Of a DNA stretch of 64,000 bases, positions 41,884 through 56,263 are shown piece after piece. This DNA comes from Candidatus Kapaibacterium sp. (GTDB taxonomy: Bacteria; Bacteroidota; Ignavibacteria; Kapaibacteriales; HRBIN21): contig CALKEU010000001.1 in the NCBI GenBank assembly GCA_938084565.1, positions 202,131 through 266,130 of the forward strand, written 5' to 3'. Position 1 is the stretch's first letter, and every line of letters starts with the position of its first letter. The notes under the pieces are model-generated. The model did no database searches and was not told where the DNA came from. It worked only from the letters and a program-made list of their open reading frames with translations. Both the position numbers and the translations under genes were made by a program.

Positions 41884-42573
41884 TTAGGGCCGCACCCATA
41901 GGAGAGGCCTCCACCGTCCCTCCTCCCAGATGAACCCTACGTATACCCCAGAGGCTCCCCGCTCAGGCACTACGTCCCCAGCCCAGCAGAGCCGTCCCGT
42001 GAGGTCGTAGAGCACAATACGCCGGGCCAATGGGAGCCCTTCTCGACCTTCGGGGACCGATACTGGCCCAAAGCGGTACCAGACCGTGAGAACAAACTCT
42101 TCGAGGAACTCGTTGGTAATGACCCCCTGCTGTTGCTCTCCAAACGGAATCCGCACGAGCGTCCCGGTAATGCGATCACTCACTACGGCCGAGTCAACGT
42201 GCTCGGGCAAGGGGTGGTTCCACTGGAGCACGATTGTGCGTCCTCGCCCGCGTTGGACTACGAAACGGTATGCCACCGCGAAGGTATCCTGTCTCCGCAA
42301 TGGGCGAAAATCTACGTAGCTCCACTTCCACTCACCCTCAATGGAGTCGTAAAAGCGTAAGGCGGCATGGAAGATGTCCTGGGGCGGGTGGAAAGGTGGG
42401 ATTTCCCGCTCACCGAGTGCGGTATCGATCCCGTCGGTAGCTCGCTCATCTACCCCAACCACAAGTCGGATCCGCTCTCCTAATTCGTTCCCGACAGTAA
42501 AAGGGAGTTCGACGCGAAGCTGCGCCGCCGCAGTGCACACAATGCTAAGACTGATCACCGTATGCCGCCACAT
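41884..42573 (-). CDS. small T9SS-CTD secreted protein, paralogue of an internal module of the 1027-aa neighbour
   Basis: Signal peptide MWRHTVISLSIVCTAAAQ. It shares the motif VGVDERATDGIDTALGE with GLGIRATDGVDTLFGE in the 1027-aa protein. The C-terminus GVYVGFIWEEGRWRPLLWVRP is CTD-like. Confidence 0.55.
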   Translation of the reverse strand: MWRHTVISLSIVCTAAAQLRVELPFTVGNELGERIRLVVGVDERATDGIDTALGEREIPPFHPPQDIFHAALRFYDSIEGEWKWSYVDFRPLRRQDTFAVAYRFVVQRGRGRTIVLQWNHPLPEHVDSAVVSDRITGTLVRIPFGEQQQGVITNEFLEEFVLTVWYRFGPVSVPEGREGLPLARRIVLYDLTGRLCWAGDVVPERGASGVYVGFIWEEGRWRPLLWVRP

Positions 42574-42658
42574 TCCACCCACAGGTTGCCCACGGACAAC
42601 AAAACTGGGTGGTAGCCCTAGCGGACCACCACCCAGCACGTGAAGGCTTCAGCGTGTT

Positions 42659-45600
42659 TTAGCGGACCACTGAAACGGGCACCACAGTTCTTCGCTCGCC
42701 CGCTGCTGCCCGCAACAGATACCGTCCGCTCGACAGAGCTTCTACTGGGAGCAAGAATGTGTGCGAACCAGCGGCGAGCTCACCCTCGTACACTCGCATC
42801 ACCTCTTCACCCATCAGGTTGTAAAGTGTGAGCACAACCGGGGCTGCCTCTGGTACAACGAGTGTGACCGTTGCGCGCTCGAGCACCGGCTGCGGCCTCA
42901 CTTCAACCCGAAATTCAGTGCCTGCAGGAACACTCAGCAGCTGGACTGCCGTTACATTTGGATCTGTGATCTGCACCTGGTTCTGCCCACTGAGCGTTCC
43001 CCACACACGTCCGGAGGCATCAACAACGGTATACTCCGTTGCGCCACTCCCTAGGTGCAGAGTCACGGGGTACTGCACACCCTGGAATCGGATCACCGGC
43101 GAGGCGGCATCCTCCACGTAGGTCCCACTCCCGAAACGGACATCGAAGATTCCCTGTGGAGGCAGCGGTGGCAACTCGAACCGCTCCCGATCGATCGGCT
43201 GCTGACTGAGGTAGAGAATCGCCTCCCTCCCAGCCGCATCGCGCACGGCCACTGGGGCACTCTGCTGCACCACGTACTCCCGGTACTCGTCCCGATAGGC
43301 CGTCGCACGCGGCGTGCCAGGAGCCTCCAGCTTGAGGTAGCCCCTGCCCCGAATCTTGATCCAATACCCTAAGCCGGGGGTCAACTCTGAGACTTCCATG
43401 AAACCACGATCCGGCTCGTATTTGTACACACCCCCGACCCGCTGTGGTAGTGGCTCAGCACCATAGTTCTCGAACTGAATCCGCTCAATGCTTACAGGAA
43501 CCGATAGCCCACCGATAGTATTCCACCCATCGTAGAGCAGCACATTGTCGTTCCGGTCTATCCGAAGCAGACGAACACCCGCAATCTGGCGATCCACGGA
43601 ATCGCTATACTTGACGTAGTAGCCGTAGCCCACCTGGAGGTTTTCCGAGGCCTGATACTGGTTCTGCGAGAACCAGAAGGGGATATTGATAGCCCGCGGA
43701 TAGACCATCCGCCAGTGAGGATTCGCCGGCCGCACTGGCAGCGAGAGCAAGTTCCACCCTTTTCGGATGACAGGATACTGGACGACGAGCGGATACGTGT
43801 ACTCGATGACAAACGAGCGGATCCGGGCATCCGTGATCGTATAGGACATCCGCGTACCCCCTGCCGGGGTTGCCTGCCGCATATCGACACCAAAGATCAA
43901 GCCGTTGAGTGTATCTCGCAAGAAGAGGCGCGCCCCTGCTGGAAAATCTGTCGTATCCCACGTCAGTACCACGGGGTAATTCGGAGCCCCACCGGCATCG
44001 AAGCGGCACAGAAAGACCACGGTTGAATCGGAAAACACATTGCGAATGTCACGCGAAGCATAGATCCCTACCAAGTCCCGCAATCCATACGGCGCAGTAC
44101 CTGGCGGGACATTGGCTACCCCGTCGAGATACCAGCGCGCATAGAAGCTCCCCGCCACTGGCGGATTATCATACACCGTCTCTCCAAAGAGAGTGTCGAC
44201 TCCGTCTGTTGCGCGAATCCCCAACCCAAAGACCAGTGTTGCTGACTGTGGAATTGCAGCCGAGTTGCTCACCGTGATCCGGATTCCCCGGCCCAGGACC
44301 GCTAGATTACGGGGATCATTGTTCGGCTCCACAGGGTTCCGCACGTAGATAAATGTTACCCGCAAGCGCACCGGTGATACCGACGCAGAGAGGCTGCGGA
44401 ATGTAATGTAGCCAACGTAAATACCTGCCGCATCTATGTTCTGGGGCAACTCCTGCGGATCACAGAGAATTCGGAAATTCTGAGGACGTGACGGGGATTG
44501 TGGGTTGTTTTGGATGTCTTGGAGAATGGTCTCACCGAGCGTCCGATCGATGTAATCAATCACTCCCCGGCGTGTGATAGTCGGGATGGGGTTTCGGTCG
44601 CCGGGGCCAGCAGCAAAGGTCTGAAACTTAAGCCACCGTGCGTTAGACTCCACCACGATATCCGTCAATCGCGTACCCTCCACCTCGTTAGTTACCACTA
44701 ATTCCCGCCGTCCGAAGAAGACCCCTCGCGTCCACGAAGCCGAATCCAACACAATGGGATGAATGACTTCCCACTCATCGCCAGAGAGAGAAACTTGTCG
44801 AACAACTGCGTCAACCCCTATCCGTGGTTCAAAGCCCATCTGCGGAACACTCGTGACAAGGACGTAGATCATGCCCGGCATACTCGGATAGAGATTGGCA
44901 ATTGGCAGCAGACCGCGATTGTCAACCCCCTCTAATCCCTCATACGACACATTCCCGGAAGCCCCACCGGTACGATATGTTACAAAGTCCCGATACCGTG
45001 ATCCCACTGAATTAGCTGGGAAGGGTTCCGCAGGAAAAACGCTCAGGTTGAGATCGTTGTACTTCAGCGTGTCGTTGGAGAGTATCAACCGTGCAACCGA
45101 ACCCTCAGGCCCCGTTACCCGGAACCGTAAGTACACAACCGGAACATACTGCCGGTTATCACACTGAATAGTTGGATCCCACGGATCCTGTCCCAGTCCA
45201 GCAGGGCTCGGAGGCAGTGGTTTTGCAGAGCTAGCAACAATGCGGATTCGACGGGGATCGAAGACTGGGGGAACGCTCCCCAGGTTGTGCCATGCAACGA
45301 GTGCTCCTAACATATCCTGAGATGTGATCGCAACATCATCGAAGGCAAACGTGAAATCCTTTGCTAAAACGCTATCACCCGCTGGACTGACCTTTTGGAG
45401 CCCCAGAAACTCCAAGAAGCGCCCATCGTACTTGAGTTTGAATTCGAAACTGTAGATCGGCCACACCTGTCCCCACACAGGGTGGGTTGTAGGAACCCAA
45501 CAGTTTCGGATGTAGACTGGAACCAACAACTCCCGTGGCTGCCGTGGATCTGCTTGTTGAGGTACCACGATAAAGCCCGCAGGATAGACTTGCGCATCGT

Positions 45601-45742
45601 ACCCTGGGCCGCTGCCTGTCAAACTAAGCACCGGCAGTTTCACGTCGACCGTCTGTCCCCACAGCAGGGGGCTTCCGGCGAGGATAATACCTACAGCCAC
45701 TGTCCACAGAGATACCCACTGTCGCATTGCCTCTCTCCTCAC
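42659..45742 (-). CDS. large T9SS-secreted protein with N-terminal cohesin-like module
   Basis: Signal peptide, then a cohesin-like beta-sandwich pattern (LLVPVYIRN...IYSFEFKLKYDGRFLEFLGLQKVSPAGDSV). The C-terminus VLTLYNLMGEEVMRVYEGELAAGSHTFLLPVEALSSGRYLLRAAAGERRTVVPVSVVR is a T9SS CTD. Confidence 0.6.
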   Translation of the reverse strand: MRREAMRQWVSLWTVAVGIILAGSPLLWGQTVDVKLPVLSLTGSGPGYDAQVYPAGFIVVPQQADPRQPRELLVPVYIRNCWVPTTHPVWGQVWPIYSFEFKLKYDGRFLEFLGLQKVSPAGDSVLAKDFTFAFDDVAITSQDMLGALVAWHNLGSVPPVFDPRRIRIVASSAKPLPPSPAGLGQDPWDPTIQCDNRQYVPVVYLRFRVTGPEGSVARLILSNDTLKYNDLNLSVFPAEPFPANSVGSRYRDFVTYRTGGASGNVSYEGLEGVDNRGLLPIANLYPSMPGMIYVLVTSVPQMGFEPRIGVDAVVRQVSLSGDEWEVIHPIVLDSASWTRGVFFGRRELVVTNEVEGTRLTDIVVESNARWLKFQTFAAGPGDRNPIPTITRRGVIDYIDRTLGETILQDIQNNPQSPSRPQNFRILCDPQELPQNIDAAGIYVGYITFRSLSASVSPVRLRVTFIYVRNPVEPNNDPRNLAVLGRGIRITVSNSAAIPQSATLVFGLGIRATDGVDTLFGETVYDNPPVAGSFYARWYLDGVANVPPGTAPYGLRDLVGIYASRDIRNVFSDSTVVFLCRFDAGGAPNYPVVLTWDTTDFPAGARLFLRDTLNGLIFGVDMRQATPAGGTRMSYTITDARIRSFVIEYTYPLVVQYPVIRKGWNLLSLPVRPANPHWRMVYPRAINIPFWFSQNQYQASENLQVGYGYYVKYSDSVDRQIAGVRLLRIDRNDNVLLYDGWNTIGGLSVPVSIERIQFENYGAEPLPQRVGGVYKYEPDRGFMEVSELTPGLGYWIKIRGRGYLKLEAPGTPRATAYRDEYREYVVQQSAPVAVRDAAGREAILYLSQQPIDRERFELPPLPPQGIFDVRFGSGTYVEDAASPVIRFQGVQYPVTLHLGSGATEYTVVDASGRVWGTLSGQNQVQITDPNVTAVQLLSVPAGTEFRVEVRPQPVLERATVTLVVPEAAPVVLTLYNLMGEEVMRVYEGELAAGSHTFLLPVEALSSGRYLLRAAAGERRTVVPVSVVR

Positions 45743-45761
45743 GGAGCAAATTCAACAGACT

Positions 45762-46901
45762 TCATTCCACAATGAAGGCCACGGGGAGCTGTGCTCCCCC
45801 GATTCGTTGCCATCGTCCAACGTATATACCTGTAGGTAGCCCTTGAAGGGACACCTCGAACGGCTTCCCTTCGGCATGTACAGATCGCAGGAGCCTACCT
45901 AGGACATCGTAGAGCTCCAGCCGTTCGCCCGGCTCTAGGTACAACAGGCCAGAAGGATACACCATCACCCTCTGGCAACGCTCGCTGACGGCTGAAGGCT
46001 GCGATGGCGCAGCCATCACTACCAAACTATCTCCTATCCAACGAGTAAGGCAAGCACACGGATCCAGGGGATAAGACAGAAGACGAAGGGTGACCGTATC
46101 CGCCCACTGTATGCGGGCAGACAATTCCACGATAAGCTCGGACCTCTCCCGCTGGGAAGTCCATTTTATGCTCAGTGTGTCGCCACTGCGCTCCCACGTT
46201 TGCAACTCAACACCTTCGCCTACAGCAATATTCTCTACCTGTAGCCACGACGGCAGACCCGTTATGACTGTTGCCACCGAACGGAGTTCCAGAGCTGGAG
46301 GACAGCCCACTTGCACTACCCACAAACACGAGGTATCCGTCCCCACTAGGTTGCACTCCCGCGTCAGACTTTGCGTCCACAGAGTACGGTCAGGCGTGTC
46401 AACGATACGGGCATAGACGATTACAGGCGTTGTATCAACCTGCACCACCCGCCTCCGTTCGAACTCTTCGTTGAATTCCACATACTTCAGTTGAATGACA
46501 GCCGTATCAGGACACTCCCGACGATAATCTCCAAGGAAGGCCACCAACGGCTTCGCCCCAGAGATTCGTCGTGTGAGCGTGAATGCATATGCCCGAATCT
46601 CGCCATACAGCGCACTAAAGGCTCGCTGTTCCATTCCTTCTGCCAACGTACCGCTGACTAGCATCGTATGGAAGGCAAACTTCTCTGGATTGTACTGTAT
46701 GGCAAGATTGAAGCCCATCAAGCTGTCCGTTGGCTGTACTGGACTGATCTCAACGATCAAGATACACTCGCGTCTCCCGCACACATCTACCGTATCCCAG
46801 ACCCGCAGGGCAAGCCGTGCTGTCGTCTGGGCTATGAGCTGCCCCATGCCGCACAGAGCCATCACTATCCATGATGGTAAGCATGCCCTGCAGGACATCA
46901 T
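45762..46901 (-). CDS. T9SS-secreted protein with N-terminal cohesin-like module
   Basis: ALRVWDTVDVCGRRECILIVEISPVQPTDSLMGFNLAIQYNPEKFAF follows the cohesin pattern V.V.....G..V.V.I....V.....G..F.L...YDP..L. The C-terminal CTD is LELYDVLGRLLRSVHAEGKPFEVSLQGLPTGIYVGRW. Confidence 0.6.
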   Translation of the reverse strand: MMSCRACLPSWIVMALCGMGQLIAQTTARLALRVWDTVDVCGRRECILIVEISPVQPTDSLMGFNLAIQYNPEKFAFHTMLVSGTLAEGMEQRAFSALYGEIRAYAFTLTRRISGAKPLVAFLGDYRRECPDTAVIQLKYVEFNEEFERRRVVQVDTTPVIVYARIVDTPDRTLWTQSLTRECNLVGTDTSCLWVVQVGCPPALELRSVATVITGLPSWLQVENIAVGEGVELQTWERSGDTLSIKWTSQRERSELIVELSARIQWADTVTLRLLSYPLDPCACLTRWIGDSLVVMAAPSQPSAVSERCQRVMVYPSGLLYLEPGERLELYDVLGRLLRSVHAEGKPFEVSLQGLPTGIYVGRWQRIGGAQLPVAFIVE

Positions 46902-46907
46902 ACCCCA

Positions 46908-48788
46908 TTAACGCAGCACCACGATTGGTTCGAGCTCTCGGATACCTGTTGGACCTTCAATCCGGCACATATACATGCCCGGGCTGACCCGCTCGCCGAG
47001 CCCGTTCGTCCCATCCCACTCTACCTCGTAGGAACCGCTCGAATACTCCGCATCAGCAAGTGTCCGTACATAGCGGCCCATGGCGTCATAGAGGAGCACC
47101 CGATATCGCCCCGCCTCCGGTACATGGAGTCGGATGGCTGTCCGATCAATAACGGGGTTGGGGGCAACATGGCCTACCGTCGTCGGAGCTGCTGTGACAG
47201 CCAGCGGCACTACGAGCTCAGGCAGCTCTTCGTCATTCAAGCGGACATTGCTTACCCGCAGCTGAGCATCTTCTACGCGCAGCGTCACATACAGTATCGG
47301 CTCCCCCGCCTCACACTCTATCACACCCGCAATCGCCATACGCCCAGCGTCGTAGGCAACCGTCAGCCTGTCTGCAAAGCGCGGTGCAATCTCAACTCCA
47401 CTGATGACCCCATTGAATTGTACTCGAATACCCAGTGCTCCTGCCCAGGCTCCGTTGAGGGCGATGGGGAAGCGATATACTCCAGGAGCACTACTGTGCG
47501 GTTGCGCAATGTGGAGATTCGAGGCAATACCTGCAGCTGCTGCCCCCCGACCGTATGGTGGGAGTACTGTCAAATCCAGCAGCCACGGCAGATACGGCAC
47601 ACGGCCCGCCATGTAGAGCATGATGATGGCTGCATCATACTCCGTAGCCTCGAAAAAGAGAATAGGATCACCTCCAACATAGGGGAGCGAGTTATCCTGT
47701 GGGAGGTCCTGCCAGTAGTAGAGCGATCGTGTCGGTATAGCGCGTCGATGGTAGGCTGTATCAGCTGTATTGTTCCAGTTGCGTGTAGAGTAGTAGTAGC
47801 GCCCGTTGTGGTTGACGTCTCCATGGTATGCCTGGCGCCCTTTGAGGCTATCGAGACGCCGATCTGTTGCTACAGAGCGCAGGATGAGCATTACATCGTT
47901 CACTGTCACAAACCGGTCTTGTCCCATCCCGGTGTGCTTTCCCACTTGGGAGAAGTCTACATCTCCGTCGCCCCACCCTTCCAGGAAGAGCCGAGGGATG
48001 GCATTGAAGCGAATAACTGTATCACTTCCCCCCGAAGGTTGCCATGTGCTACTCAATACCGTAGAGGTAAGTGCCTGATTGACATCGCCAGTGAAGACCA
48101 AGCCATTCAGATAGTCACCAAATCCCCCCTTGATACCAATCGCTGCACCCTGTACCTGAACTGGTCCCCCCGAGGCCGTCAAACCGTAAGCAAACTCAAT
48201 ATCACCCTGGAAATTCCCCGGCCGCGAAGATTCATACAGCCACACTTGGAAACTGGCGATACTGGATGGCAACGACGGGTTGTTAATGTTCAAATCCCTC
48301 CACTCCACCACGAACGCCCGATTCGGGGCTGATCCCACCACTTTGTACGAGATCCGCGAAGGAACGTACCCCGGTTGAGTCGTCCGATAGTAATGGTCAC
48401 CCCAGAAGGGGGCAATGACGTTGAAAGGTTCAGAATTGACGAAGAGCCGCCCCGGAATATTCCCGCCCGTTAACGGAGGAGTCTCCCCGGTACGTAGCAA
48501 CAAGACGAATCCATTGACAGAGATTGCTAGTCTGCTGTACCGATAGCCCTGATACTCGAAGAGGAAAGGGAGTGCCACAATGGCGTAGCCGTCATTGTGA
48601 TCAGGGTTCCCGGTTGCTGGATCTACGAACTGGTCCGCATCCAGCACCGTTGCTCCCGCCAGCAAGGTAAAGGGTTTTCCTCCGACTTTGACAGCAGGCT
48701 GGAACTCGGCATAAACCTGGGATCTTGCGGCAATTGCACCGCTGAGCAGTAACGCCACAACACCCCCGATCAGCGTCAGCATTCTCAT
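46908..48788 (-). CDS. T9SS-secreted protein with dockerin-like Ca-binding loop motifs
   Basis: Signal peptide MRMLTLIGGVVALLLSGAIAARSQ (ATG at 48786-48788 preceded by GAGGAGA). It has two dockerin-like segments, GDGDVDFSQVG...VTVNDVMLILRSVA and GDVNHNGRYYYS...TADTAYHRRAI. The C-terminal CTD is YRVLLYDAMGRYVRTL...GMYMCRIEGPTGIRELEPIVVLR. Confidence 0.6.
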   Translation of the reverse strand: MRMLTLIGGVVALLLSGAIAARSQVYAEFQPAVKVGGKPFTLLAGATVLDADQFVDPATGNPDHNDGYAIVALPFLFEYQGYRYSRLAISVNGFVLLLRTGETPPLTGGNIPGRLFVNSEPFNVIAPFWGDHYYRTTQPGYVPSRISYKVVGSAPNRAFVVEWRDLNINNPSLPSSIASFQVWLYESSRPGNFQGDIEFAYGLTASGGPVQVQGAAIGIKGGFGDYLNGLVFTGDVNQALTSTVLSSTWQPSGGSDTVIRFNAIPRLFLEGWGDGDVDFSQVGKHTGMGQDRFVTVNDVMLILRSVATDRRLDSLKGRQAYHGDVNHNGRYYYSTRNWNNTADTAYHRRAIPTRSLYYWQDLPQDNSLPYVGGDPILFFEATEYDAAIIMLYMAGRVPYLPWLLDLTVLPPYGRGAAAAGIASNLHIAQPHSSAPGVYRFPIALNGAWAGALGIRVQFNGVISGVEIAPRFADRLTVAYDAGRMAIAGVIECEAGEPILYVTLRVEDAQLRVSNVRLNDEELPELVVPLAVTAAPTTVGHVAPNPVIDRTAIRLHVPEAGRYRVLLYDAMGRYVRTLADAEYSSGSYEVEWDGTNGLGERVSPGMYMCRIEGPTGIRELEPIVVLR

Positions 48789-48838
48789 CGTCTCCTCATC
48801 CGCGTGTGAGACCTGTTTGTTCTTGTCACACAAGGAGA

Positions 48839-48872
48839 GGGAGCTTTCCTGCCTGTCAGGCAGGAAGCTCCC
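48839..48872 (-). terminator. intergenic stem-loop (14-bp stem, 5-nt loop) 10 nt downstream of the 2208-aa gene stop; candidate intrinsic terminator/attenuator or RNA-stabilising hairpin
   Basis: GGGAGCTTTCCTGCC-TGTCA-GGCAGGAAGCTCCC forms a near-perfect inverted repeat with one bulged T. On the minus-strand transcript it is followed by CUCUCCUUGUGUG, which is only moderately U-rich. Confidence 0.45.
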
Positions 48873-48881
48873 CCACTCTTA

Positions 48882-51800
48882 TTACCGCACTAGGACCATT
48901 GGCTGGACGAGCACCACGTCGCCAGCAGTGATCCGGTAGTAGTACACACCACTGGGGACTTCTACACCGTTAGCGCTTCTTCCGTTCCACGGTACAATGT
49001 ACTCGTTAGCCGGGTAGAAGCCCTCCAGCAGCGTAGCAACCTGCGTACCGAGAGCATCGTACACTTCGAGCCGTATAGTAGCTGGCTCCGTCAGGCGGAA
49101 GCGAATCTGAGTTGTCTGCTCAAATGGATTAGGAGTATTTCCGAGCAGCTGCACTGGACCAGCCGCAGCAGCCACCGGCTCGGGCACATCGCTAATGAAG
49201 TCATACACGATCACAAAGTTCGTGACGGCGTCGGTGTAAATGACAACCGAAAGCGAGTCGCCATTCCGCTCTAGGGTCACTGTGGGCACCGAACGTCCTT
49301 CACCCGTGCGCATATTGAAGCTAAAGATGTTCCCGTTGGAGGCGCCGTCACGGATATACCACGTCGACCCAGCAGGGTTACGCGCGGCATCGTTCCGGTC
49401 AGGAACATCTTGAGCACTCCACGTGATGCGCACAGGATACGCATCAGAGGCATTGCCGGTGACACTTCCCGCCTGGAAGCGCCCTTTGTAGATCGATTGC
49501 CCTTCAACACCAGCAACCGCCCGCGGAAAGATATTCCGCACCGTTCCATTCGTAGAAGCAATACTCCACCGAGCGTCGAAGACGTCGTTGGGTGGGATCG
49601 GCGGCAGCTCGTACTCGCAGTAGTTGGAATCCAACTTCCCGACGCCACCACGGTTCGGATCATCACCGGTGGTTGCCAGCGGCGCTGTTCCCCATTCGAG
49701 TACCTGGAAGGCCCCGAAGCGATTGCTAATCCGCATTGGGACAATGAAGTCTGTCGGATCGGACACGTTCAGCTTGTAGGAGATCTCGTGTTGTGCTCCC
49801 TGCCGATCCACGACTCGAACGCGGACGGTAACCTTGCCATCGGGCCCTGGGGTGGCATTCAGAGCTGCCGTGCTAATCAAAACCTTGACTGTATCGGAGG
49901 ACTGGGGACCGCTAATTGTAGCCGGGCTAACCTGGAAGCCCGCAGGCTCGACCACCTCGATTGTCAGCTGCTCGAGGGCATCCGGCGGCTCCCGACGCAG
50001 GAGATCACGGTCGATCACCAGAATGCTATCCACATAGGGTTTCCCAAGCTCAACACATCTTACTGCCGGCAGCTGTGCCAGCCGTGGCGGATGGTTTACT
50101 GCCCGCACATTGAGGTCGAGCACCTTCACGTGTGTCAGTCCGTACTCGTCCGTAACCAGAACGGTTACCTTCTCTCGACGCGGCGCATCGTAGACCCCTG
50201 GAGTGCCAAAGAGAAGCCCGCTGACCGGATCGATCTGGAGCCACCGCGGGGTGGTCTTCTTGTCGCGCAGATCCCACGCACCCGCCTCGGGGAAGCATGG
50301 ATCGCGTGGGACAAAATCACGTGGATCGCCGGGATAAATCAGCTCAAATTGATGTGCCTGCCCAAAGTTCGGATCGTACACGACTATGCGACGACTCGAA
50401 TCCAGCAGCGTCGGATTGTAGTCCTGGTCCTCTATGGCATCCGGCAGCGTAGAGGTGAGGATGGTGGGAGCTACGTTGACGAGAACTCGCCGCGTTAGAT
50501 AGTTGACTCCACCATGGCCATCATTCACTACGATGGAGACAACCGTGTCGGTGTTGAGTGCCCCATGGTGTTGCATTGGGGGTGTCAGCAGTTGCCATGC
50601 AGTGGCAGAATCAATCCTCACATTGAGCTGCCCACGGAGGCTGAAGTCGATCGCTAATGGATCGGGCTGCCCACTGTTATCGTAGCGCCGTAGGTACTGG
50701 TTGCTCATCCACACCGGACGTACCTGCGTTGCAGGCTCAACGACTGTATCTGGCGGCACATCCCGCAGACTAATCGAGGCAAAGCCATAGGTTGTGCGCC
50801 CATAGCGGAAGTCCCATCCACGAGCACCAGCGTCAGCATCTTCGAGCTCGTCATCGGTATCGATGTCAACTTTAAAGCGGAGGCTATCAGTCAAGTTCGC
50901 AAGCCAAACACCGTTTCGTTCGCAGGCTACGTTGAAGCCTGTAAACTGCGGCGTACTGTCGATGACGAAGATCCGGAACTGGTACGTCACCGTCGTCGCC
51001 CCCGTGTTACCATAGTCCACGGTATCCTGCTGCAAGAACCGAGCATTGCTGCCGTCGTACGCTTGCGCATTGAAGTACGGCGGATAGAGGTAGATGTACT
51101 TTGCGATGACCTCCTCACTCAGCCCAGCAGCCTTCAGGGAGTCAACGGTTCGGGCGCTGGGCGGGAAGTTGCGGACAGCCACCGTGACGATTTCTCCACC
51201 GGGAACCACAAACGGGTTTGTCGGTCGGCCCTTGAGCACAACGTAGCCTCGCGCTCCATAGTACGGACCAAACGTTGCCGGGAGCGTATCGGCCTGGAGC
51301 CAGTAGGAAAGCCCCGAACCAGGTGCAACACTCCAGAAGTACGCAAGCTGCGGATACCGATCGGGGAACATGACCGACCGCGGGTCATAGAAGAGGTTCG
51401 GGTCTACCGCAGTAATGGTAAAGATGGAATCCCGCCCTGGCCCCGTCGGCTGACGCGGATAGCTTACATCCTCAGTCAGGAAGATCATATTCCGCAACTC
51501 CGGTGGCGTGATATTCTCCAACGCCACCTTGTTCCCCGTGAACACTGGCGGGTCAACTGTTGCTCCTACCTCAAAGATGAGTGCTCCATTGATTGCATCC
51601 GCAACCGTCCCCTGCCACAGAACTGTACGGGAAACAACGGCAACGACATCACCGACTCGTACCGGAAGCGCATTGTACCGTTCGCCGGCAAATACTGTAA
51701 CCTTCTGAGGGCTAATTGCCCCATCGGTGGGGAGAATACGATTGACATACCCAAAGCCGGGGCCCCCCAACTCATTGACAAAGCCCTCATATTTCCGCCC

Positions 51801-54800
51801 TTGCAAAGCCGCTAGATCCTCAATGTCCGGCCGCCTCTGGAGTGCAGCAAGAATTGCTCCCAAGTTCGTCCCAATGTTGGCCAGCCCCTCGATCGTGCGC
51901 CGATCGGTCGGGCGGCGGTTTACAGAATCGGGAACTAGCTCGACACGTGCACGGAAGACCTCGTTCGTTGCTCCTATCTGGCGCAGATTGACCCGGATGT
52001 AGTCACCCGTGCTGGTATTGATGACAAAGAAGACCGTCTCGTTGATCGCTCGCGGGTCATTGTTATTGAGCTCTGCTGACCCTGTGTAATTAGCACGGGC
52101 TTCAAGGAAGAGCGGATAGCCGATCGGATGTTTCGTGCCGCGGAATTCTGTCTGCAGGGCAGCAATGTTCGGGTCAGCCTCTGCATCGAAGGGATTCCGG
52201 GTCCACCGCCGGACGTACTTCCCGAAGGAAGGCAGCGTGGGATCATTATATGTCCGCAGGGTTTTGGGAATACCGACGGCGAAGTCCTCGATTGGCGACA
52301 TCCGCCGGTTGGAGTAGTCCGCCGTCTTGATATCGGTCCCTTTGTCGAAGATATCGTAGATGTGCCCCTGCATCAGCAACCGCTCAGGGATACTCGCTGG
52401 GTCAGGTGTATTCTCATCCCCTGCGTTCAAAACCGGGATCGGGATATAGGTGTAAAGGTGTCGCGACTCAAAGGGGCCCTGATTCTTCCCCGTACCTCCA
52501 CGCACGAAGCCAAGCTGTCGCGTGCCGTCCCCAGCGACAAAGAAGGTCTCCTGCGTACGCCCACTGACAGGCAAAATCGTCACCACGTTGGCTTCGGTCC
52601 GTCCCCAGTAATTGCCCCGGAGCGTATCGATCCCACCCATGCCAACGCCAGTCCCTGCTCGGCCTCCCTTCGTATCGGGATAGTCCGGCAGGCGGATGAG
52701 AAACCGCGCCGCGTTATCGTAGATAGAGTTTGCAGCCCAGTGATAGCTTGCGTACGGCAGCGGTCCCACTACGTCACCATATAGAATTGCCCCCGCCAGG
52801 TCACTCGAGGCGAGATTTGTCCCCTGCACCAATGGCCCTGTAATGGCATTCTGCTGGGCGCCTATGTCAGAGGTCGCCGTGTTGTTCGTAATCAGGCTTC
52901 GCGTAAAGACCAACTGCAGATTGTAATTGTCCGAGTAGATTGCCGCACCGGTATAGGCACGGTTACCCTGAATGCGCACTCGGTTGAAGAAGACAGAATC
53001 TGTCCGCCCTGCACGGCTAATACTCACCTCGTCGAGCACGTAAATAGCTCCACCGAGCCCTGTGCCGTTCTCCCGCAAGGTTGTCCCCGGGTGCTGACGC
53101 CGAATGTCTCCAATCTGCGTCGTCCCCGATCCCATCTGCGCCATGTTCGGGATAGCTTCATTGTCAAAGAAGCGAGTCAGCATCCGCACATCCGCCACCG
53201 GTGCTCCGGGCGTCCACGTAAAGATGTCATCTCGAGAGCTAAACCCAACAGCCACCCCGTTCGGGAGAACAGTGATGTTATCGACATCAGTCAAGAAGAA
53301 CCGATGCGAGGACGTCTGAGGATGCACGATACAGACGGCACCACCGTTGCCATTATAGGCCTTATTAGCCCTGAACTCAACTCCTTTGACGACATTGAGA
53401 TCAGCGTTGAGCGTGTAAACGGCCCCACCACCACGCACCTGCGCCTCGTAGCCTTGCTGAACCTGTCCAACGATGTTATTAGTAAATACCGCTCGCACGA
53501 GCCATATATACCGTTGCTCGACGGGCAAACAATTGGGCGGCGGGCAAGGCAGCTGAGCTGCGATAGCACCACCCGAAAAGCCAGCCTCATTGTTGTCAAA
53601 CTCCACCGGATAGTTCCCTCCGTAGAGGGACAGAGGCCCTACCGTACCACCAGCCCCATAGACGGTGAAGTTCTTCCCCGAGAAGATCGCCCCACCGTGC
53701 TCGACAGCACGGTTATTGCGGAACTTGATGTTGTAGCCATAGTTACGCGTGTCAATGAGGGCATCCGAACCACCGATGACGGGCGACGGTCGCGTATCCA
53801 CACCTGCAGCCGCGACATAGATAGCTCCTCCACGCCCCGCTTGGTTATCCACGAAGTACGTCTCCTGGCGTGCCTCGCCTCCCTGGCGTCCGCGCACCTG
53901 GAGCCGACCGGCATTGGTGCCCACATAAATTGCCCCACCATGGGACAGCGCACCAATCTGGGTCGGATCGGTGAAGAAGGGAACCTCAGCCCTATTGCTG
54001 ACGAAGCGTCCACGGACTGTCACCGAGGTCGCCCCACCAACGTAGAGTGCCCCACCGCGTGCCCCTCCAGTATTCGGGTTGTTTTGGAGATTCCTTGCGC
54101 TGTTGCCGTCGAAGAAGACGTAATCATACACGTTCGGAGCCTCGTAGTCGTTTATCCCCAACCCAATCTCTAGCGGGGTTCGCCCAGCGATGTAGACCGC
54201 TCCACCGTAAGCTTGATTCTTCCAGCTCTGAGGCTCTAGAGGAGCAGGGTTATTGAGGTCATCGACGATCGCCCACACACCTGGGGCAATCTGCCGTAGT
54301 TCAACGCTCGAAAGCAGTACGCGGTTCCCCGTAAAGCTCAAATACCGCACCCGCCCCAACAGCACTGCTAGACGAGCATCATCGTAAGCCTGACGATCGC
54401 TGTTGGTCAACGGTTCTGAAGCAGCACTGTAGACTTGATCGATGGCCTTGACTGCTTGGGATATCGGAACCGCGGTTGCATTGTCCGTTAGGTACGGATT
54501 GATAGGGCCGTAATCCGGCAAGGCTGAAATACCCGGTGTCGGGTAAACTCCCGTTCCGACAGGCGCCTGGAGTAACTGGAGCGCCCCTCCCCGGTATCGC
54601 GCCATGTTATTCCGGAACTCGCACAGCAGGAGCCATGTACGCGAGGAGAAGCTCGTGATGACCCCACCGCTGCCGTTAGTCTGCTGGATGAGCTGTGCAT
54701 TCAGGGCGGCAATAGCACCAGTGTTGGGTTGATAGATCGGGAAACGGTCCACCGTCGTATCCTTCCGGAAGTTCTCGAAGACTACGTTCCGGAAGAAGGC

Positions 54801-55466
54801 CGCCCGTGCTCCCGGCAGGATGATGATGTGCCCCCATTCTCGGGAAAAGTTGTTGACCGGACGCCCTCGGAAGGTAATTACACCCTGCGTCACATTGATG
54901 TTCCCGCCCCCCGCACGCCGCCACGGTGTTTGGTTGATATTCGGGTCAGAACCCGCAAAGGCCAGGCGCGCCGCGGCGTACATAATAGCCTTGCCCGGTG
55001 GCAGGTTCTGCAACCGCGGATCTGATCCGAGGTCCACCAAGAATATCTCTCCATACTTGCTTGGGTCAATCGTCGGATCCCCGACAATGGTACTTACAGC
55101 AGCAGCGCTGAAGTAGTTGAGGTCAGCATAGCCTGTGTAACCACATGGGTTGTTGGGATCCACCGGGTTGCAGCCACCAGGGAATTGGTTATAGGTTGCC
55201 GAGACGTATCCATCGGCGATGATGCGGCCGCCTACGGAGTCTATGAGGCGTCCGTTAGGCAGGAACTCCACAATGGTCCCGGGCTCAATGATGAGCGTCC
55301 CGGCAATCATGTATGTCCCGCTGATGCGGTATAGCGTATCCTTCAGGAAAATCCGGACCTCATTTGGGCCCAGACGCCCACTGACTTCCACAACGGGCAG
55401 CTGCGCACGGCTTACACCTGCAGCCAGGATCCCCACAAGAGCGACAAGGTGCAACCACCGCTTCAT
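48882..55466 (-). CDS. giant (about 2190-aa mature) T9SS-secreted parallel beta-helix protein with Pmp-type (GGAI / FxxN) repeats and cadherin/Ig-like domains
   Basis: Signal peptide MKRWLHLVALVGILAAGVSRAQ (ATG at 55464-55466, 4 nt after GGAGGAA). It has many GGA[IVL]Y/F..N repeats (HGGAIYVGTNAG, RGGAIYVAAAG, EHGGAIFSGKNF, FSGGAIAAQ, GLGGAIYVLDE). The C-terminal CTD is IRLEVYDALGTQVATLLEGFYPANEYIVPWNGRSANGVEVPSGVYYYRITAGDVVLVQPMVLVR. Confidence 0.7.
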   Translation of the reverse strand: MKRWLHLVALVGILAAGVSRAQLPVVEVSGRLGPNEVRIFLKDTLYRISGTYMIAGTLIIEPGTIVEFLPNGRLIDSVGGRIIADGYVSATYNQFPGGCNPVDPNNPCGYTGYADLNYFSAAAVSTIVGDPTIDPSKYGEIFLVDLGSDPRLQNLPPGKAIMYAAARLAFAGSDPNINQTPWRRAGGGNINVTQGVITFRGRPVNNFSREWGHIIILPGARAAFFRNVVFENFRKDTTVDRFPIYQPNTGAIAALNAQLIQQTNGSGGVITSFSSRTWLLLCEFRNNMARYRGGALQLLQAPVGTGVYPTPGISALPDYGPINPYLTDNATAVPISQAVKAIDQVYSAASEPLTNSDRQAYDDARLAVLLGRVRYLSFTGNRVLLSSVELRQIAPGVWAIVDDLNNPAPLEPQSWKNQAYGGAVYIAGRTPLEIGLGINDYEAPNVYDYVFFDGNSARNLQNNPNTGGARGGALYVGGATSVTVRGRFVSNRAEVPFFTDPTQIGALSHGGAIYVGTNAGRLQVRGRQGGEARQETYFVDNQAGRGGAIYVAAAGVDTRPSPVIGGSDALIDTRNYGYNIKFRNNRAVEHGGAIFSGKNFTVYGAGGTVGPLSLYGGNYPVEFDNNEAGFSGGAIAAQLPCPPPNCLPVEQRYIWLVRAVFTNNIVGQVQQGYEAQVRGGGAVYTLNADLNVVKGVEFRANKAYNGNGGAVCIVHPQTSSHRFFLTDVDNITVLPNGVAVGFSSRDDIFTWTPGAPVADVRMLTRFFDNEAIPNMAQMGSGTTQIGDIRRQHPGTTLRENGTGLGGAIYVLDEVSISRAGRTDSVFFNRVRIQGNRAYTGAAIYSDNYNLQLVFTRSLITNNTATSDIGAQQNAITGPLVQGTNLASSDLAGAILYGDVVGPLPYASYHWAANSIYDNAARFLIRLPDYPDTKGGRAGTGVGMGGIDTLRGNYWGRTEANVVTILPVSGRTQETFFVAGDGTRQLGFVRGGTGKNQGPFESRHLYTYIPIPVLNAGDENTPDPASIPERLLMQGHIYDIFDKGTDIKTADYSNRRMSPIEDFAVGIPKTLRTYNDPTLPSFGKYVRRWTRNPFDAEADPNIAALQTEFRGTKHPIGYPLFLEARANYTGSAELNNNDPRAINETVFFVINTSTGDYIRVNLRQIGATNEVFRARVELVPDSVNRRPTDRRTIEGLANIGTNLGAILAALQRRPDIEDLAALQGRKYEGFVNELGGPGFGYVNRILPTDGAISPQKVTVFAGERYNALPVRVGDVVAVVSRTVLWQGTVADAINGALIFEVGATVDPPVFTGNKVALENITPPELRNMIFLTEDVSYPRQPTGPGRDSIFTITAVDPNLFYDPRSVMFPDRYPQLAYFWSVAPGSGLSYWLQADTLPATFGPYYGARGYVVLKGRPTNPFVVPGGEIVTVAVRNFPPSARTVDSLKAAGLSEEVIAKYIYLYPPYFNAQAYDGSNARFLQQDTVDYGNTGATTVTYQFRIFVIDSTPQFTGFNVACERNGVWLANLTDSLRFKVDIDTDDELEDADAGARGWDFRYGRTTYGFASISLRDVPPDTVVEPATQVRPVWMSNQYLRRYDNSGQPDPLAIDFSLRGQLNVRIDSATAWQLLTPPMQHHGALNTDTVVSIVVNDGHGGVNYLTRRVLVNVAPTILTSTLPDAIEDQDYNPTLLDSSRRIVVYDPNFGQAHQFELIYPGDPRDFVPRDPCFPEAGAWDLRDKKTTPRWLQIDPVSGLLFGTPGVYDAPRREKVTVLVTDEYGLTHVKVLDLNVRAVNHPPRLAQLPAVRCVELGKPYVDSILVIDRDLLRREPPDALEQLTIEVVEPAGFQVSPATISGPQSSDTVKVLISTAALNATPGPDGKVTVRVRVVDRQGAQHEISYKLNVSDPTDFIVPMRISNRFGAFQVLEWGTAPLATTGDDPNRGGVGKLDSNYCEYELPPIPPNDVFDARWSIASTNGTVRNIFPRAVAGVEGQSIYKGRFQAGSVTGNASDAYPVRITWSAQDVPDRNDAARNPAGSTWYIRDGASNGNIFSFNMRTGEGRSVPTVTLERNGDSLSVVIYTDAVTNFVIVYDFISDVPEPVAAAAGPVQLLGNTPNPFEQTTQIRFRLTEPATIRLEVYDALGTQVATLLEGFYPANEYIVPWNGRSANGVEVPSGVYYYRITAGDVVLVQPMVLVR

Positions 55467-55537
55467 GATTCCTCCACCACCTAGAGACCACTTGTCAGAA
55501 GAGTGCATGAGTTCACCACAGCTTGGACGAACATATA

Positions 55538-56263
55538 CTATTCAACGGCTGTGCCAAGGCGAGCAAGGCCTGCTTTAGCCTCACCCGCAAAGTCCGAGAA
55601 TTCATTCTCCTGCAGCAGCTGGCGATATAGCTGCACTGCTTTCTGTGTATTCCCCGCCCGTTCGTAGCAATATGCCGCAAAGAAGCGATACCGCTCTGCT
55701 ATCCCGAGCGGAGCGCCAATAGTGGCAGCCCGCTCGTAGAGCTGGGCGGCTTCCGCCAACTTTCCTTCCTCTTCGGTGCACGCTGCCAATCCCGCATAGG
55801 CGCCAACGAGCACAAGAGGAGCCTTCGCTGTGGCTGCGCGTTCGAAGTACGGACGGGCCTTCGCGATCTCTCCCTGAAGCAGATACGCACTCCCAGCATA
55901 GAAGGCTGCTACTCGGCCTGCTTCCGTGCTGCCGTATTCCTGTACAATCTCTACCAGCCCACGGACTGGCTCATCGCGGATGGTCTTGGCTGTATCACCG
56001 TACAGAGCCCGCTCGTAGTCCCCATTATCGTAGTAGGTAACAACCCGTGCCAGCAGCGTGGCAGCTGTCTCGGCACGCTGCTTCTGGAGGATGTTCCAGT
56101 AGAGGACGCCTCCAATGGCCAGAAGGAGCACAACTGCGGCACCGATTACCTCACGTAGATGCGCTTGCAGCCACAGCTGAAACCGTTCGGCAAGCTTGGG
56201 TTGGAGCTCTATGCTGGCTTGCTGTTGCTCTTGCTCTGTTGTACGCACGGCTTCCTGGTCCAT
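55538..56263 (-). CDS. membrane-anchored TPR protein (YfgM-like)
   Basis: Cytoplasmic N-terminus, a single TM (VIGAAVVLLLAIGGVLYW), then periplasmic TPR-like helices. Confidence 0.55.
   Translation of the reverse strand: MDQEAVRTTEQEQQQASIELQPKLAERFQLWLQAHLREVIGAAVVLLLAIGGVLYWNILQKQRAETAATLLARVVTYYDNGDYERALYGDTAKTIRDEPVRGLVEIVQEYGSTEAGRVAAFYAGSAYLLQGEIAKARPYFERAATAKAPLVLVGAYAGLAACTEEEGKLAEAAQLYERAATIGAPLGIAERYRFFAAYCYERAGNTQKAVQLYRQLLQENEFSDFAGEAKAGLARLGTAVE

What the first reader, a model, noticed from the sequence alone, without database searches (positions are those of the whole stretch)
46908..48788. Dockerin-like calcium-loop / helix motifs in the 641-aa T9SS cargo protein
The middle of this protein has two segments resembling dockerin repeats: an Asp/Asn-rich loop followed by a hydrophobic helix. 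These are GWGDGDVDFSQVGKHTGMGQDRFVTVNDVMLILRSVATD and YHGDVNHNGRYYYSTRNWNNTADTAYHRRAI, which recall the canonical GDVNGDGKVNSTDLTLLKRYLL. The N-terminal ~250 aa may be a separate binding module. The protein sits between the two cohesin-like genes and the giant adhesin-like gene, so it is a candidate connector.
Basis: partly seen in the sequence, partly recalled or inferred. Interest (0 to 1): 0.6.

Follow-up and report, generated by a model that had tools for sequence, protein, structure and literature searches.

The report
Split-loop dockerin in T9SS surface protein
The middle of this secreted surface protein is a real but heavily modified dockerin (a calcium-stabilised protein-docking plug known from cellulosomes), with extra sequence inserted into both calcium loops so that standard domain searches miss it; it sits in a conserved five-gene operon of surface proteins, and its binding partner has not been tested.

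Summary

Its loop runs into a beta-hairpin, and the real helix is 50 residues downstream (EYDAAIIMLYM).

The architecture is signal peptide, NIDO-like beta-sandwich, split dockerin, cohesin-like beta-sandwich, T9SS CTD. The operon (TPR protein, 2208-aa giant, target, 379-aa, 1027-aa and 251-aa proteins) is syntenic in six Kapabacteria/Ignavibacteria-type loci.

Cohesin likeness of the neighbours has only sub-threshold support. Binding is untested.

Verdict: a new variant of a known kind, of moderate interest.

The parts
46908..48788 (-). Whole gene, 626 aa from the ATG at 48788; the stop codon is 46908-46910.
   Evidence: The database protein P0001 is 100% identical.
48717..48788 (-). N-terminal signal peptide, residues ~1-24, ending near the conserved A-Q-V-Y.
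   Evidence: Hydrophobic N-terminus seen in the sequence. Q24 is nearly invariant. AF2 models a low-confidence helix for residues 3-16. Cleavage is inferred.
48003..48701 (-). N-terminal beta-sandwich, NIDO-like (residues ~30-262). It is duplicated in the ~900-aa variants of the family.
   Evidence: pLDDT >90 and all-beta. PF06119 NIDO is hit in 13 of 41 homologues, best E 5.7e-5, but not in the window protein itself. The duplication is seen in L006.
47574..47981 (-). Split-loop dockerin module (residues 270-405).
47955..47969 (-). Ca loop 1, N-terminal half: D274-G-D276-V-D278 (ligand positions 1, 3, 5). It is preceded by the invariant W272-G273.
   Evidence: D274 and D276 are invariant; D278 is D in 82 and N in 15 of 97 sequences. 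Dockerin_1 HMM positions 2 onward align here in the spliced sequences.
47916..47954 (-). Insertion 1 inside Ca loop 1 (residues 279-291; 13-18 aa across the family). It contains the invariant S280 and the nearly invariant H285 and Q290.
   Evidence: Removing it is needed for HMM positions 2-6 to align.
47865..47915 (-). Ca loop 1, C-terminal half (V294-T295-x-x-D298; positions 8, 9, 12) plus helix 1 (residues 296-308).
   Evidence: V294 and D298 are invariant; T295 is conserved in 96 of 97. The helix appears in both models.
47799..47819 (-). Ca loop 2, N-terminal half: D324-V-N326-H-N328-G329-R330 (positions 1-7).
   Evidence: D324, V325, H327, G329 and R330 are invariant. The translation was checked.
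47649..47798 (-). Insertion 2 inside Ca loop 2 (residues 331-380; 36-76 aa across the family). It comprises a beta-hairpin (330-336 and 343-351) plus short strands and a variable segment.
   Evidence: Excising it alone restores a Dockerin_1 hit: E 1e-3 for the window protein and 1e-6 for a homologue.
47601..47648 (-). Ca loop 2, C-terminal half (A381-T382-E-Y-D385; positions 8-12) plus helix 3 (residues 383-393), running on to R396.
   Evidence: D385 is invariant; A386, I389 and Y392 are conserved at >=90%. The helix appears in both models.
47574..47591 (-). Invariant L400-P401-W402-x-x-D405 tail. It is a candidate C-terminal partner of W272 in a Trp-Pro 'clasp'.
   Evidence: Invariance is shown. 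The positional analogy is to W(-1)/P75 of the R. flavefaciens ScaA dockerin (PMC3821032). This is inferred; contacts could not be inspected.
47184..47555 (-). Third domain, a cohesin-like beta-sandwich (residues ~412-535).
46911..47171 (-). T9SS type A C-terminal sorting domain (residues ~540-626).
48882..55508 (-). Upstream operon gene: a 2208-aa protein with PMP repeats, a He_PIG domain, shared module X and a T9SS CTD.
   Evidence: It is syntenic in six loci and 48-58% identical, the most conserved member of the operon.
45762..46901 (-). Downstream operon gene: a 379-aa T9SS cargo protein. It starts 6 bp after the target's stop codon. Its N-domain has a cohesin-type motif (DSLMGFNLAIxYNPEKL).
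   Evidence: It is the fastest-evolving operon member, 19-26% identical across the loci. Cohesin PF00963 is hit only in the cropped L001 orthologue, E 0.07.
42659..45742 (-). Downstream operon gene: a 1027-aa T9SS cargo protein. Its N-domain has a cohesin-type motif (IYSFEFKLKYD), and it carries module X at residues ~485-646.
   Evidence: Cohesin PF00963 is hit in 2 of 7 orthologues, best E 0.019. Module X is shown.
41884..42639 (-). Last operon gene: a 251-aa protein consisting of module X plus a T9SS CTD.
55538..56263 (-). TPR_21-type protein (241 aa) that always precedes the five cargo genes.
   Evidence: Synteny is shown.

Best explanation
Residues 270-405 are a true evolutionary dockerin: two F-hand repeats, each a Ca2+ loop followed by a helix. 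Both 12-residue calcium loops have been split by insertions.

- Loop 1 keeps ligand positions 1/3/5 (D274, D276, D278) and 8/9/12 (V294, T295, D298), with 13-18 extra residues in between.
- Loop 2 keeps positions 1/3/5/6/7 (D324, N326, N328, G329, R330) and 8/9/12 (A381, T382, D385), with 36-76 extra residues in between. These form a beta-hairpin subdomain.

The module sits inside a four-domain protein exported by the Sec pathway and then the type IX secretion system: a NIDO-like beta-sandwich, the split dockerin, a cohesin-like beta-sandwich and a type A CTD.

The most likely mechanism is this. Once on the cell surface, the Ca2+-folded dockerin uses its two conserved helices as a plug for a beta-sandwich socket. 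The socket could be on a co-operonic cargo protein (the N-domains of the 1027-aa and 379-aa proteins) or the cohesin-like domain of another copy of itself. Either way it would tie the five co-transcribed T9SS cargo proteins into one outer-surface assembly.

Shown: dockerin homology and fold, the domain architecture, the CTD and the operon conservation. Inferred: Ca2+ binding, surface localisation, and the identity or existence of the partner.
For: Fold:
- Dockerins reappear when the full-length model is searched.

Sequence:
- Deleting residues 279-291 and 331-380 makes 9 of 9 family members match Pfam Dockerin_1 across HMM positions 2-55 of 57. E-values are 2e-8 to 3e-4, and 6 of 9 score above the gathering cutoff.
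- The native region, deletions shifted by +7 or -7, and the reversed sequence give no hit.
- The unspliced family profile found two poly-Dockerin_1 proteins at E 2e-4 among 1.84e9 sequences.

Ligand positions and conservation:
- Of the ligand positions, D274, D276, D298, D324 and D385 are invariant across 97 homologues; positions 5 of loop 1 (D278), 3 and 5 of loop 2 (N326, N328) and 9 of both loops (T295, T382) vary only within accepted ligand-type residues.
- The dockerin core is the most conserved part of the protein.
- W272 lies at -1 to the conserved Gly and P401 lies after helix 3. These match the positions of the Trp-Pro clasp of the ScaA dockerin.

Context:
- The same TPR - giant - target - ~390 aa - ~1040 aa - ~265 aa block occurs in six loci at 35-45% target identity. 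Intergenic gaps in the window are 6-93 bp.
- All five cargo proteins carry T9SS CTDs.
- Pfam Cohesin is the pre-specified family, and it appears sub-threshold in orthologues of both neighbours at E 0.019-0.07, which is a per-family p of about 1e-6 to 3e-6.
Against: - No binding, Ca2+ occupancy or complex prediction could be obtained.
- Native sequences fail Pfam Dockerin_1 and EF-hand models. A profile search of the PDB finds no dockerin.
- Neither loop is a canonical contiguous 12-residue loop, so Ca2+ coordination geometry is unproven.
- Cohesin status of the partners is weak. The window's own 379-aa and 1027-aa proteins give no Cohesin hit. hhalign against CipA cohesins gives probabilities below 2%.
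- Domain 3 scores no better against cohesins than against generic Ig/FN3 sandwiches.
- To my knowledge, many non-cellulosomal dockerins have no known partner.
Confidence: 0.6

Rival explanations
1. The module is a dockerin by descent but no longer docks to another protein. It would act as a Ca2+-stabilised structural joint. It may pack intramolecularly against the adjacent beta-sandwich (domain 3), much as X-modules buttress type II and type III dockerins, and so hold the NIDO-like head away from the CTD anchor.
For: - The order dockerin - ~120-aa beta domain - CTD recurs in the otherwise unrelated 1772-aa protein P0211. P0211 also has a weak domain-3-like match after its dockerin. This suggests the dockerin and domain 3 travel as one unit.
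- Evidence that the neighbours are cohesins is weak.
Against: - Surface-exposed helix residues (R304, S305, E383, Y384, R396) are as conserved as the core, which fits an external conserved partner.
- Tight five-gene synteny across the lineage argues for co-assembly.
- The full-length model has pTM of only 0.55, and the linker residues 403-406 have pLDDT below 50. This gives no sign of a rigid dockerin-domain 3 unit.
Confidence: 0.22
2. The dockerin core is only a scaffold. The functional element would be the inserted beta-hairpin subdomain (residues 331-380) and/or insertion 1 (S280, H285, Q290), which would form a new ligand- or metal-binding site.
For: - Insertion 1 contains an invariant or near-invariant S, H and Q.
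- The hairpin is modelled with pLDDT 92-95, and its start (G-R-Y-Y-Y) is conserved.
- The insertions are retained in the distant P0211.
Against: - Insertion 2 is the least conserved part of the module, with mean top-residue frequency 0.42-0.45 and length varying from 36 to 76 aa. That is atypical for a specific binding site.
- The canonical dockerin positions are more conserved than the insertions.
Confidence: 0.13
3. The resemblance is a chance Asp/Asn-rich motif or a generic EF-hand, not a dockerin.
For: Native sequences give no Dockerin_1 hit at E<=10. Dx[DN]x[DN] motifs occur 13 times in the window's long ORFs.
Against: - The spliced sequences match the full length of the HMM, and the controls fail.
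- The family profile hits poly-dockerin proteins.
- EF-hand models reach only E 0.12-0.14, and only on spliced sequences.
- The motif positions are invariant across 97 homologues.
Confidence: 0.03

Closest known systems
Type I dockerin (Pfam PF00404 Dockerin_1), for example the C. thermocellum Xyn10B/XynY dockerin 2ccl_B and the Cel9 dockerin 4fl4_A
   Same: - The ligand pattern D1, [DN]3, [DN]5, [TN]9, D12.
- A full-length HMM match after the insertions are excised.
   Different: - Both 12-residue loops are interrupted, by +13-18 aa and +36-76 aa.
- The module is internal rather than C-terminal.
- The host is a diderm Kapabacteria/Ignavibacteria-type organism, and the carrier is a T9SS cargo protein with no glycoside hydrolase.
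- The native sequence falls below Pfam detection.
Ruminococcus flavefaciens type III / group 1-6 dockerins (5m2o_B, 5n5p_D, 8ajy_D, CttA XDoc 4iu2_B; ScaA dockerin)
   Same: - These are atypical dockerins with non-canonical second loops (11 or 13 residues, or unrecognisable) and long inter-repeat linkers of 37-45 aa (PMC2930009; PMC12484212).
- The ScaA dockerin has a W(-1)...Pro terminal clasp (PMC3821032). The positions match W272 and P401 here.
   Different: - The insertions here lie inside both Ca loops and are much larger. Insertion 2 forms a beta subdomain.
- From memory, not verified here: the CttA dockerin has a 13-residue insert in one loop.
- There is no preceding X-module; instead a beta-sandwich follows the dockerin.
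- The lineage is Gram-negative and the protein is T9SS-anchored.
Non-cellulosomal cohesin-dockerin systems (Archaeoglobus fulgidus cohesin 2xdh; C. perfringens toxin-complex pairs such as 2w1n and 2ozn)
   Same: - Dockerin and cohesin-like modules are used outside cellulose degradation, sometimes within one polypeptide.
   Different: Those modules are recognisable by standard profiles, and their binding has been shown experimentally. Here the cohesin side is only fold-level or sub-threshold, and binding is untested.
T9SS type A CTD cargo proteins of Bacteroidota
   Same: A signal peptide plus a C-terminal Ig-like sorting domain.
   Different: To my knowledge, T9SS cargo proteins are not known to be organised by dockerin-type modules. 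The literature search for dockerin plus type IX secretion found only cellulase and CAZyme contexts.
EF-hand / DxDxDG calcium-binding motifs (PMC3123361)
   Same: A Dx[DN]x[DN]G start, with the distal acidic ligand supplied from elsewhere in the chain.
   Different: The best EF-hand scores are E 0.12-0.14, and only on spliced sequences. The fold and HMM evidence point specifically to dockerin.

Membership tests
Dockerin (Pfam PF00404 Dockerin_1) | The native sequence reaches the Pfam gathering score (22.9 bits). | tested here: not met
   There is no hit at E<=1 in 41 family members. There is no hit at E<=10 for the isolated 139-aa region.
Dockerin (Pfam PF00404 Dockerin_1) | Sequence homology to the dockerin profile over both repeats. 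| tested here: met
   After the two insertions are excised, 9 of 9 sequences match HMM positions 2-55 of 57. E-values are 2e-8 to 3e-4, and 6 of 9 score >=22.9 bits. Shifted and reversed controls are negative, and spliced P0211 gives E 9e-5. The unspliced family profile hits poly-Dockerin_1 proteins at E 2e-4.
Dockerin (Pfam PF00404 Dockerin_1) | Three-helix dockerin fold with two F-hand loop-helix units. | tested here: met
   [not shown]
Dockerin (Pfam PF00404 Dockerin_1) | Two contiguous 12-residue Ca2+-binding loops. | tested here: not met
   Loop 1 is interrupted by 13-18 aa and loop 2 by 36-76 aa.
Dockerin (Pfam PF00404 Dockerin_1) | Ca2+-ligand residues at loop positions 1, 3, 5, 9 and 12. 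| tested here: met
   The residues are D274/D276/D278/T295/D298 and D324/N326/N328/T382/D385. They are invariant or conservatively D/N or T/N across 97 sequences. The mapping comes from the HMM alignment range and the sequence pattern.
Dockerin (Pfam PF00404 Dockerin_1) | Actual Ca2+ binding and Ca2+-dependent folding. | not testable with these tools
   This needs ITC, DSF or CD with and without Ca2+/EDTA, or a crystal structure.
Dockerin (Pfam PF00404 Dockerin_1) | High-affinity binding to a cohesin partner. | not tested
   No multimer prediction or experiment was possible. The candidates are listed under next steps.
Cohesin (Pfam PF00963): target domain 3 (residues 412-535) | Profile match to Cohesin. 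| tested here: not met
   There is no Cohesin hit at E<=10 and none in 41 members at E<=1. hhalign against CipA cohesins gives a probability of 0.2-1%.
Cohesin (Pfam PF00963): target domain 3 (residues 412-535) | Nine-stranded jelly-roll cohesin fold. | tested here: inconclusive
   [not shown]
Cohesin (Pfam PF00963): N-domains of the 379-aa and 1027-aa neighbours | Profile match to Cohesin. | tested here: inconclusive
   The window proteins give no hit. Among orthologues, 2 of 7 in the 1027-aa family hit Cohesin (best E 0.019). One cropped orthologue of the 379-aa family hits at E 0.07 over HMM 14-105. All are below the gathering score of 24.1. hhalign is negative.
Cohesin (Pfam PF00963): N-domains of the 379-aa and 1027-aa neighbours | Cohesin fold. 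| not tested
T9SS type A cargo | C-terminal sorting domain (TIGR04183 / PF18962). | tested here: met
   [not shown]
T9SS type A cargo | T9SS machinery present in the genome; secretion and anchoring occur. | not tested
   No T9SS component was looked for or seen in the 64-kb window.
NIDO (Pfam PF06119): N-terminal domain | Profile match. | tested here: inconclusive
   13 of 41 homologues match, best E 5.7e-5. The window protein itself has no hit.
EF-hand | Profile match to EF-hand models. | tested here: not met
   The only hits are E 0.12-0.14 on spliced sequences.

The most novel reading that the evidence does not exclude
The operon would encode a cellulosome-style, cohesin-dockerin-assembled multiprotein machine built on the outer membrane of a diderm by the T9SS and conserved across the Kapabacteria/Ignavibacteria lineage. 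The 626-aa protein would be its adaptor. It would either polymerise head-to-tail (its own split dockerin into the cohesin-like domain of the next copy) or bridge the cohesin-like N-domains of the 379-aa and 1027-aa proteins to the complex. The loop insertions would create a new specificity class of dockerin.
Probability: 0.25. Interest if true: 0.75.

Novelty: new variant of a known kind. Interest (0 to 1): 0.5.

Why it matters
**Detection.** A dockerin can tolerate large insertions inside both calcium loops, including a 36-76-residue beta subdomain, and then becomes invisible to the standard Pfam model. Surveys of dockerins outside cellulosomes therefore undercount them.

**Biology.** The finding puts a dockerin-type plug at the most conserved position of a protein in a strictly conserved five-cargo T9SS operon of unknown function, in a poorly studied lineage. 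That gives a concrete, testable hypothesis for how T9SS cargo proteins might be assembled into a surface complex: Ca2+-dependent docking to cohesin-like beta-sandwiches. To my knowledge no such mechanism has been described for T9SS cargo. A literature search for dockerin plus type IX secretion returned only cellulase and CAZyme contexts.

**Engineering.** A loop-tolerant dockerin scaffold would also interest people who engineer designer cellulosomes.

Tried and rejected
- Plain Pfam and NCBIfam scans of the protein and of 41 homologues found no Dockerin, EF-hand or Cohesin match.
- Sequence and profile searches of the PDB found only FlgD and CTD matches. This covers the full-length sequence, the full-length profile A2 and the dockerin-region profile A3. 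No dockerin appeared.
- hhalign tested target domain 3, the 379-aa N-domain and the 1027-aa N-domain against a CipA cohesin and a small cohesin alignment, and against each other. All probabilities were below about 2%. One search was run in global mode by mistake and is disregarded.
It returned only 10 close relatives, too shallow to help.
- Profile searches of the PDB with the 379-aa, 1027-aa and 251-aa families found only CTDs.
- The paper PMC3675615 (the CttA XDoc structure) is not held, so the 13-residue-insert precedent could not be verified.
- The chance-motif and generic EF-hand readings were rejected.
- The + strand ORF at 47124-48332 (402 aa) was rejected as a gene. It is antisense to a protein conserved in more than 300 homologues.
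Full report
**Observation**

The interval 46908-48788 encodes, on the minus strand, a 626-aa protein starting at the ATG at 48788. The longest ORF starts at a TTG at 48833 and gives 641 aa. Both quoted peptides are present: residues 271-309 and 321-351.

The protein belongs to a large family. More than 380 proteins hit at E<=1e-3, and most are 620-680 aa. Source names place them in Candidatus Kapabacteria, Ignavibacteriae, Chlorobi and Bacteroidota MAGs.

They are W272, G273, D274, G275, D276, S280, V294, D298, D313, D324, V325, H327, G329, R330, D385, L400, P401, W402 and D405. This stretch is the most conserved part of the protein. Mean top-residue frequency is 0.72-0.78, against 0.57 for the N-domain, 0.43 for domain 3 and 0.49 for the CTD.

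The helix-type pattern [TNSD]xxD[AVL]xx[ILM][ILM]xx[VYLIM] occurs only twice in 26,483 aa of long six-frame ORFs of the window. Both occurrences are in this protein. The signal is real.

**Standard annotation misses it**

Pfam finds only the C-terminal FlgD_ig / Por_Secre_tail region. Neither the window protein nor any of 41 homologues hits Dockerin_1, EF-hand or Cohesin at E<=1. NCBIfam likewise sees only the T9SS tail. Sequence and profile searches of the PDB find FlgD and PorU CTD-like matches, and no dockerin.

**Structure**

AlphaFold2 on the 97-sequence alignment gave a confident four-domain model with mean pLDDT 86.5:
- a beta-sandwich at residues 30-262;
- a mixed region at 270-400, with helices 296-308, 319-323 and 383-393 and a beta-hairpin at 330-336 / 343-351;
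- a second beta-sandwich at about 420-530;
- an Ig-like CTD at 540-626.

**Sequence proof and anatomy**

Reading the conserved residues against the canonical loop (D1-x-[DN]3-x-[DN]5-G-x-[IV]8-[NDST]9-x-x-D12, then a helix) suggested that both loops are split:
- Loop 1: D274-G-D276-V-D278 | 13 aa | R-F-V294-T295-V-N-D298, then helix 1.
- Loop 2: D324-V-N326-H-N328-G-R330 | 50 aa | A381-T382-E-Y-D385, then helix 3.

I tested this by excising residues 279-291 and 331-380 from the window protein and the aligned positions from eight homologues. All nine spliced sequences then matched Pfam Dockerin_1 across HMM positions 2-55 of 57. E-values ran from 2e-8 to 3e-4 and scores from 21 to 35 bits; six of nine exceed the gathering score of 22.9. 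The native 139-aa region still gave nothing at E<=10.

Controls:
- Deletions shifted by +7 or -7, and the reversed sequence, gave no dockerin hit.
- Removing only insertion 2 gave E 1e-3 for the window protein and 1e-6 for a homologue, with HMM coverage 7-55.
- Removing only insertion 1 gave nothing for the window protein and a partial hit for the homologue (HMM 2-43).

Insertion 2 is therefore the main reason the domain is undetectable.

An unbiased link also exists. An HMM of the unspliced module was searched against 1.84 billion representatives. It found 99 proteins at E<=1e-3. Almost all are orthologues, but two (P0230 and P0231) carry 8-9 canonical Dockerin_1 domains. They were hit at E about 2e-4 on profile positions 14-71, which run from helix 1 to loop 2.

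Across the family, insertion 1 is 13-18 aa and insertion 2 is 36-76 aa. Insertion 2 is the least conserved part of the module. Its first half is a confidently modelled hairpin (pLDDT 92-95).

The invariant W272 sits at position -1 to the conserved Gly that precedes the first ligand Asp. An invariant L-P-W follows helix 3. These are the positions of the experimentally supported Trp(-1)...Pro 'clasp' of the R. flavefaciens ScaA dockerin (PMC3821032). I could not inspect contacts in the model, so this is an inference.

Repeat 1 was delimited correctly but has an insert in its loop. In repeat 2 the quoted peptide contains the loop start and the hairpin, not the helix. The helix (EYDAAIIMLYM, residues 383-393) lies downstream.

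**Rest of the protein**

- The N-terminal domain is NIDO-like. PF06119 is hit in 13 of 41 homologues, best E 5.7e-5, though not in the window protein. It is duplicated in the ~900-aa variants.
- The C-terminus is a T9SS type A CTD.

**Genomic context**

The gene is the third of six tightly spaced minus-strand genes, with gaps of 6-93 bp:
1. a TPR_21 protein (55538-56263);
2. a 2208-aa protein with PMP repeats, a He_PIG domain and a CTD (48882-55508);
3. the target;
4. a 379-aa CTD protein (45762-46901);
5. a 1027-aa CTD protein (42659-45742);
6. a 251-aa CTD protein (41884-42639).

The same order, preceded by an E1 dehydrogenase gene, is found in six loci whose target orthologues are 35-45% identical. 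Downstream genes differ between loci.

Identity to the window:

| Operon member | Identity to window (%) |
|---|---|
| Giant (2208 aa) | 48-58 |
| Target (626 aa) | 35-45 |
| 1027-aa protein | 32-42 |
| TPR protein | 34-42 |
| 251-aa protein | 26-31 |
| 379-aa protein | 19-26 |

Three of the cargo proteins share an unannotated module of about 150 aa. It occupies 251-aa residues 43-185, 1027-aa residues 485-646 and giant residues 1921-2070. hhalign probability is 93-94% at E 2-4e-7, and HMMER gives E 6e-7 for the 251-aa / 1027-aa pair.

**Are the neighbours cohesin-like?**

The window proteins have no Cohesin hit, and hhalign against CipA cohesins is negative. Cohesin was the single pre-specified family, and it does appear sub-threshold in orthologues:
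- 2 of 7 proteins in the 1027-aa family, best E 0.019;
- the cropped N-domain of the L001 orthologue of the 379-aa protein, E 0.07 over HMM positions 14-105 of 139.

Divided by the 24,736 models, these correspond to per-family p-values of about 1e-6 to 3e-6. The local alignments fall on the cohesin hallmark strand (GFNLAIQYNPEKF against NCDFVYSYDPNVLE). This is suggestive but not established, and fold tests were not possible.

**Mechanism**

Shown:
- a dockerin homologue with conserved Ca-ligand positions;
- T9SS cargo architecture;
- a conserved operon of five CTD proteins that share modules.

Inferred: the Ca2+-folded dockerin docks through helices 1 and 3 onto a beta-sandwich partner and links the operon's products on the cell surface. 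Candidate partners are the neighbours' N-domains or the cohesin-like domain of another copy of the protein.

Rivals:
- A purely structural, intramolecular role. The dockerin - beta-domain - CTD cassette also occurs in the 1772-aa choice-of-anchor-I protein P0211. Its dockerin is 36% identical over 163 aa, hairpin included.
- A function carried by the insertions themselves.
- A chance or EF-hand explanation, which is excluded.

**Comparison and novelty**

Dockerins outside cellulosomes are known (own knowledge: Peer et al. 2009, cited by papers found). Ruminococcal dockerins show loops of 11 or 13 residues, unrecognisable second loops and long linkers (PMC2930009; PMC12484212).

I found no description of the following features:
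- both loops split, one by a 36-76-residue beta subdomain;
- an internal position in a T9SS cargo protein;
- restriction to essentially one orthologous family plus P0211, 99 representatives among 1.84e9.

It fails two literal membership criteria: the native Pfam score and contiguous 12-residue loops. It meets the fold, homology and ligand-pattern criteria. I therefore classify it as a new variant of a known kind.

Interest is moderate (0.5). The dockerin itself is an extension of known biology. The conserved T9SS operon that it may organise is uncharacterised, and its assembly is now directly testable.

Noticed in passing
window 42085-42513 (-), 43805-44290 (-), 49299-49748 (-): An unannotated ~150-aa module is shared by three of the five operon cargo proteins. 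It occupies residues 43-185 of the 251-aa protein, 485-646 of the 1027-aa protein and 1921-2070 of the giant. hhalign probability is 93-94% at E 2-4e-7, and HMMER gives E 6e-7 for the 251-aa / 1027-aa pair. The motif is G..ATxG.D..GE.ELPP.PP..FDARF...W. There is a weak second copy at residues ~829-870 of the 1027-aa protein. No Pfam or PDB match was found.
   Followed up: partly
window 41884-56263 (-); loci L001, L003-L007: A strictly conserved block occurs in six distant loci: E1 dehydrogenase, TPR_21 protein, giant PMP-repeat protein, target, then proteins of ~390, ~1040 and ~265 aa. Downstream genes vary. The giant protein is the most conserved member (48-58% identity), which is unusual for a surface protein. 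The function of the block is unknown.
   Followed up: partly
L006:10001-12715 (and P0038-P0055, ~900-930 aa): A subfamily of the target has a tandem duplication of the N-terminal NIDO-like domain. The split dockerin, domain 3 and the CTD are unchanged.
   Followed up: partly
P0211 (1772 aa; NBO69033.1, Bacteroidetes MAG), residues 1424-1579: The split dockerin, including the hairpin insertion, also occurs in a different architecture: Big_5, choice-of-anchor I, split dockerin, a ~120-aa domain, then a T9SS CTD. The module is therefore portable and not confined to one orthologous family.
   Followed up: partly
window 47574-47591 (-) and 47973-47975 (-): The invariant L400-P401-W402-x-x-D405 lies in a segment that AlphaFold models with low confidence (pLDDT below 50 at residues 403-406). 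Together with the invariant W272, it may form a Trp-Pro terminal clasp like that of the ScaA dockerin. Alternatively it may be a conserved interaction or processing site.
   Followed up: partly
window 47916-47954 (-): Insertion 1 of the dockerin carries an invariant S280 and nearly invariant H285 and Q290. These residues have no counterpart in canonical dockerins, and their role is unexplained.
   Followed up: no
window 47124-48332 (+): A 402-aa ATG-initiated ORF lies antisense to the target gene. It is most likely a spurious ORF in 58.7% GC DNA, because the opposite strand encodes a protein conserved in hundreds of homologues.
   Followed up: no
window 48788-48833 (-): The start codon is ambiguous. 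The options are the TTG at 48833 (641 aa), the ATG at 48788 (626 aa), or the Met two codons later, since the identical database protein P0001 is 624 aa.
   Followed up: no
window 626-3799 (-): Another large probable surface protein (1057 aa) has an N-terminal DUF7948 domain (E 2e-36) and an Ig_3/I-set domain near its C-terminus. It is unrelated to the operon.
   Followed up: no
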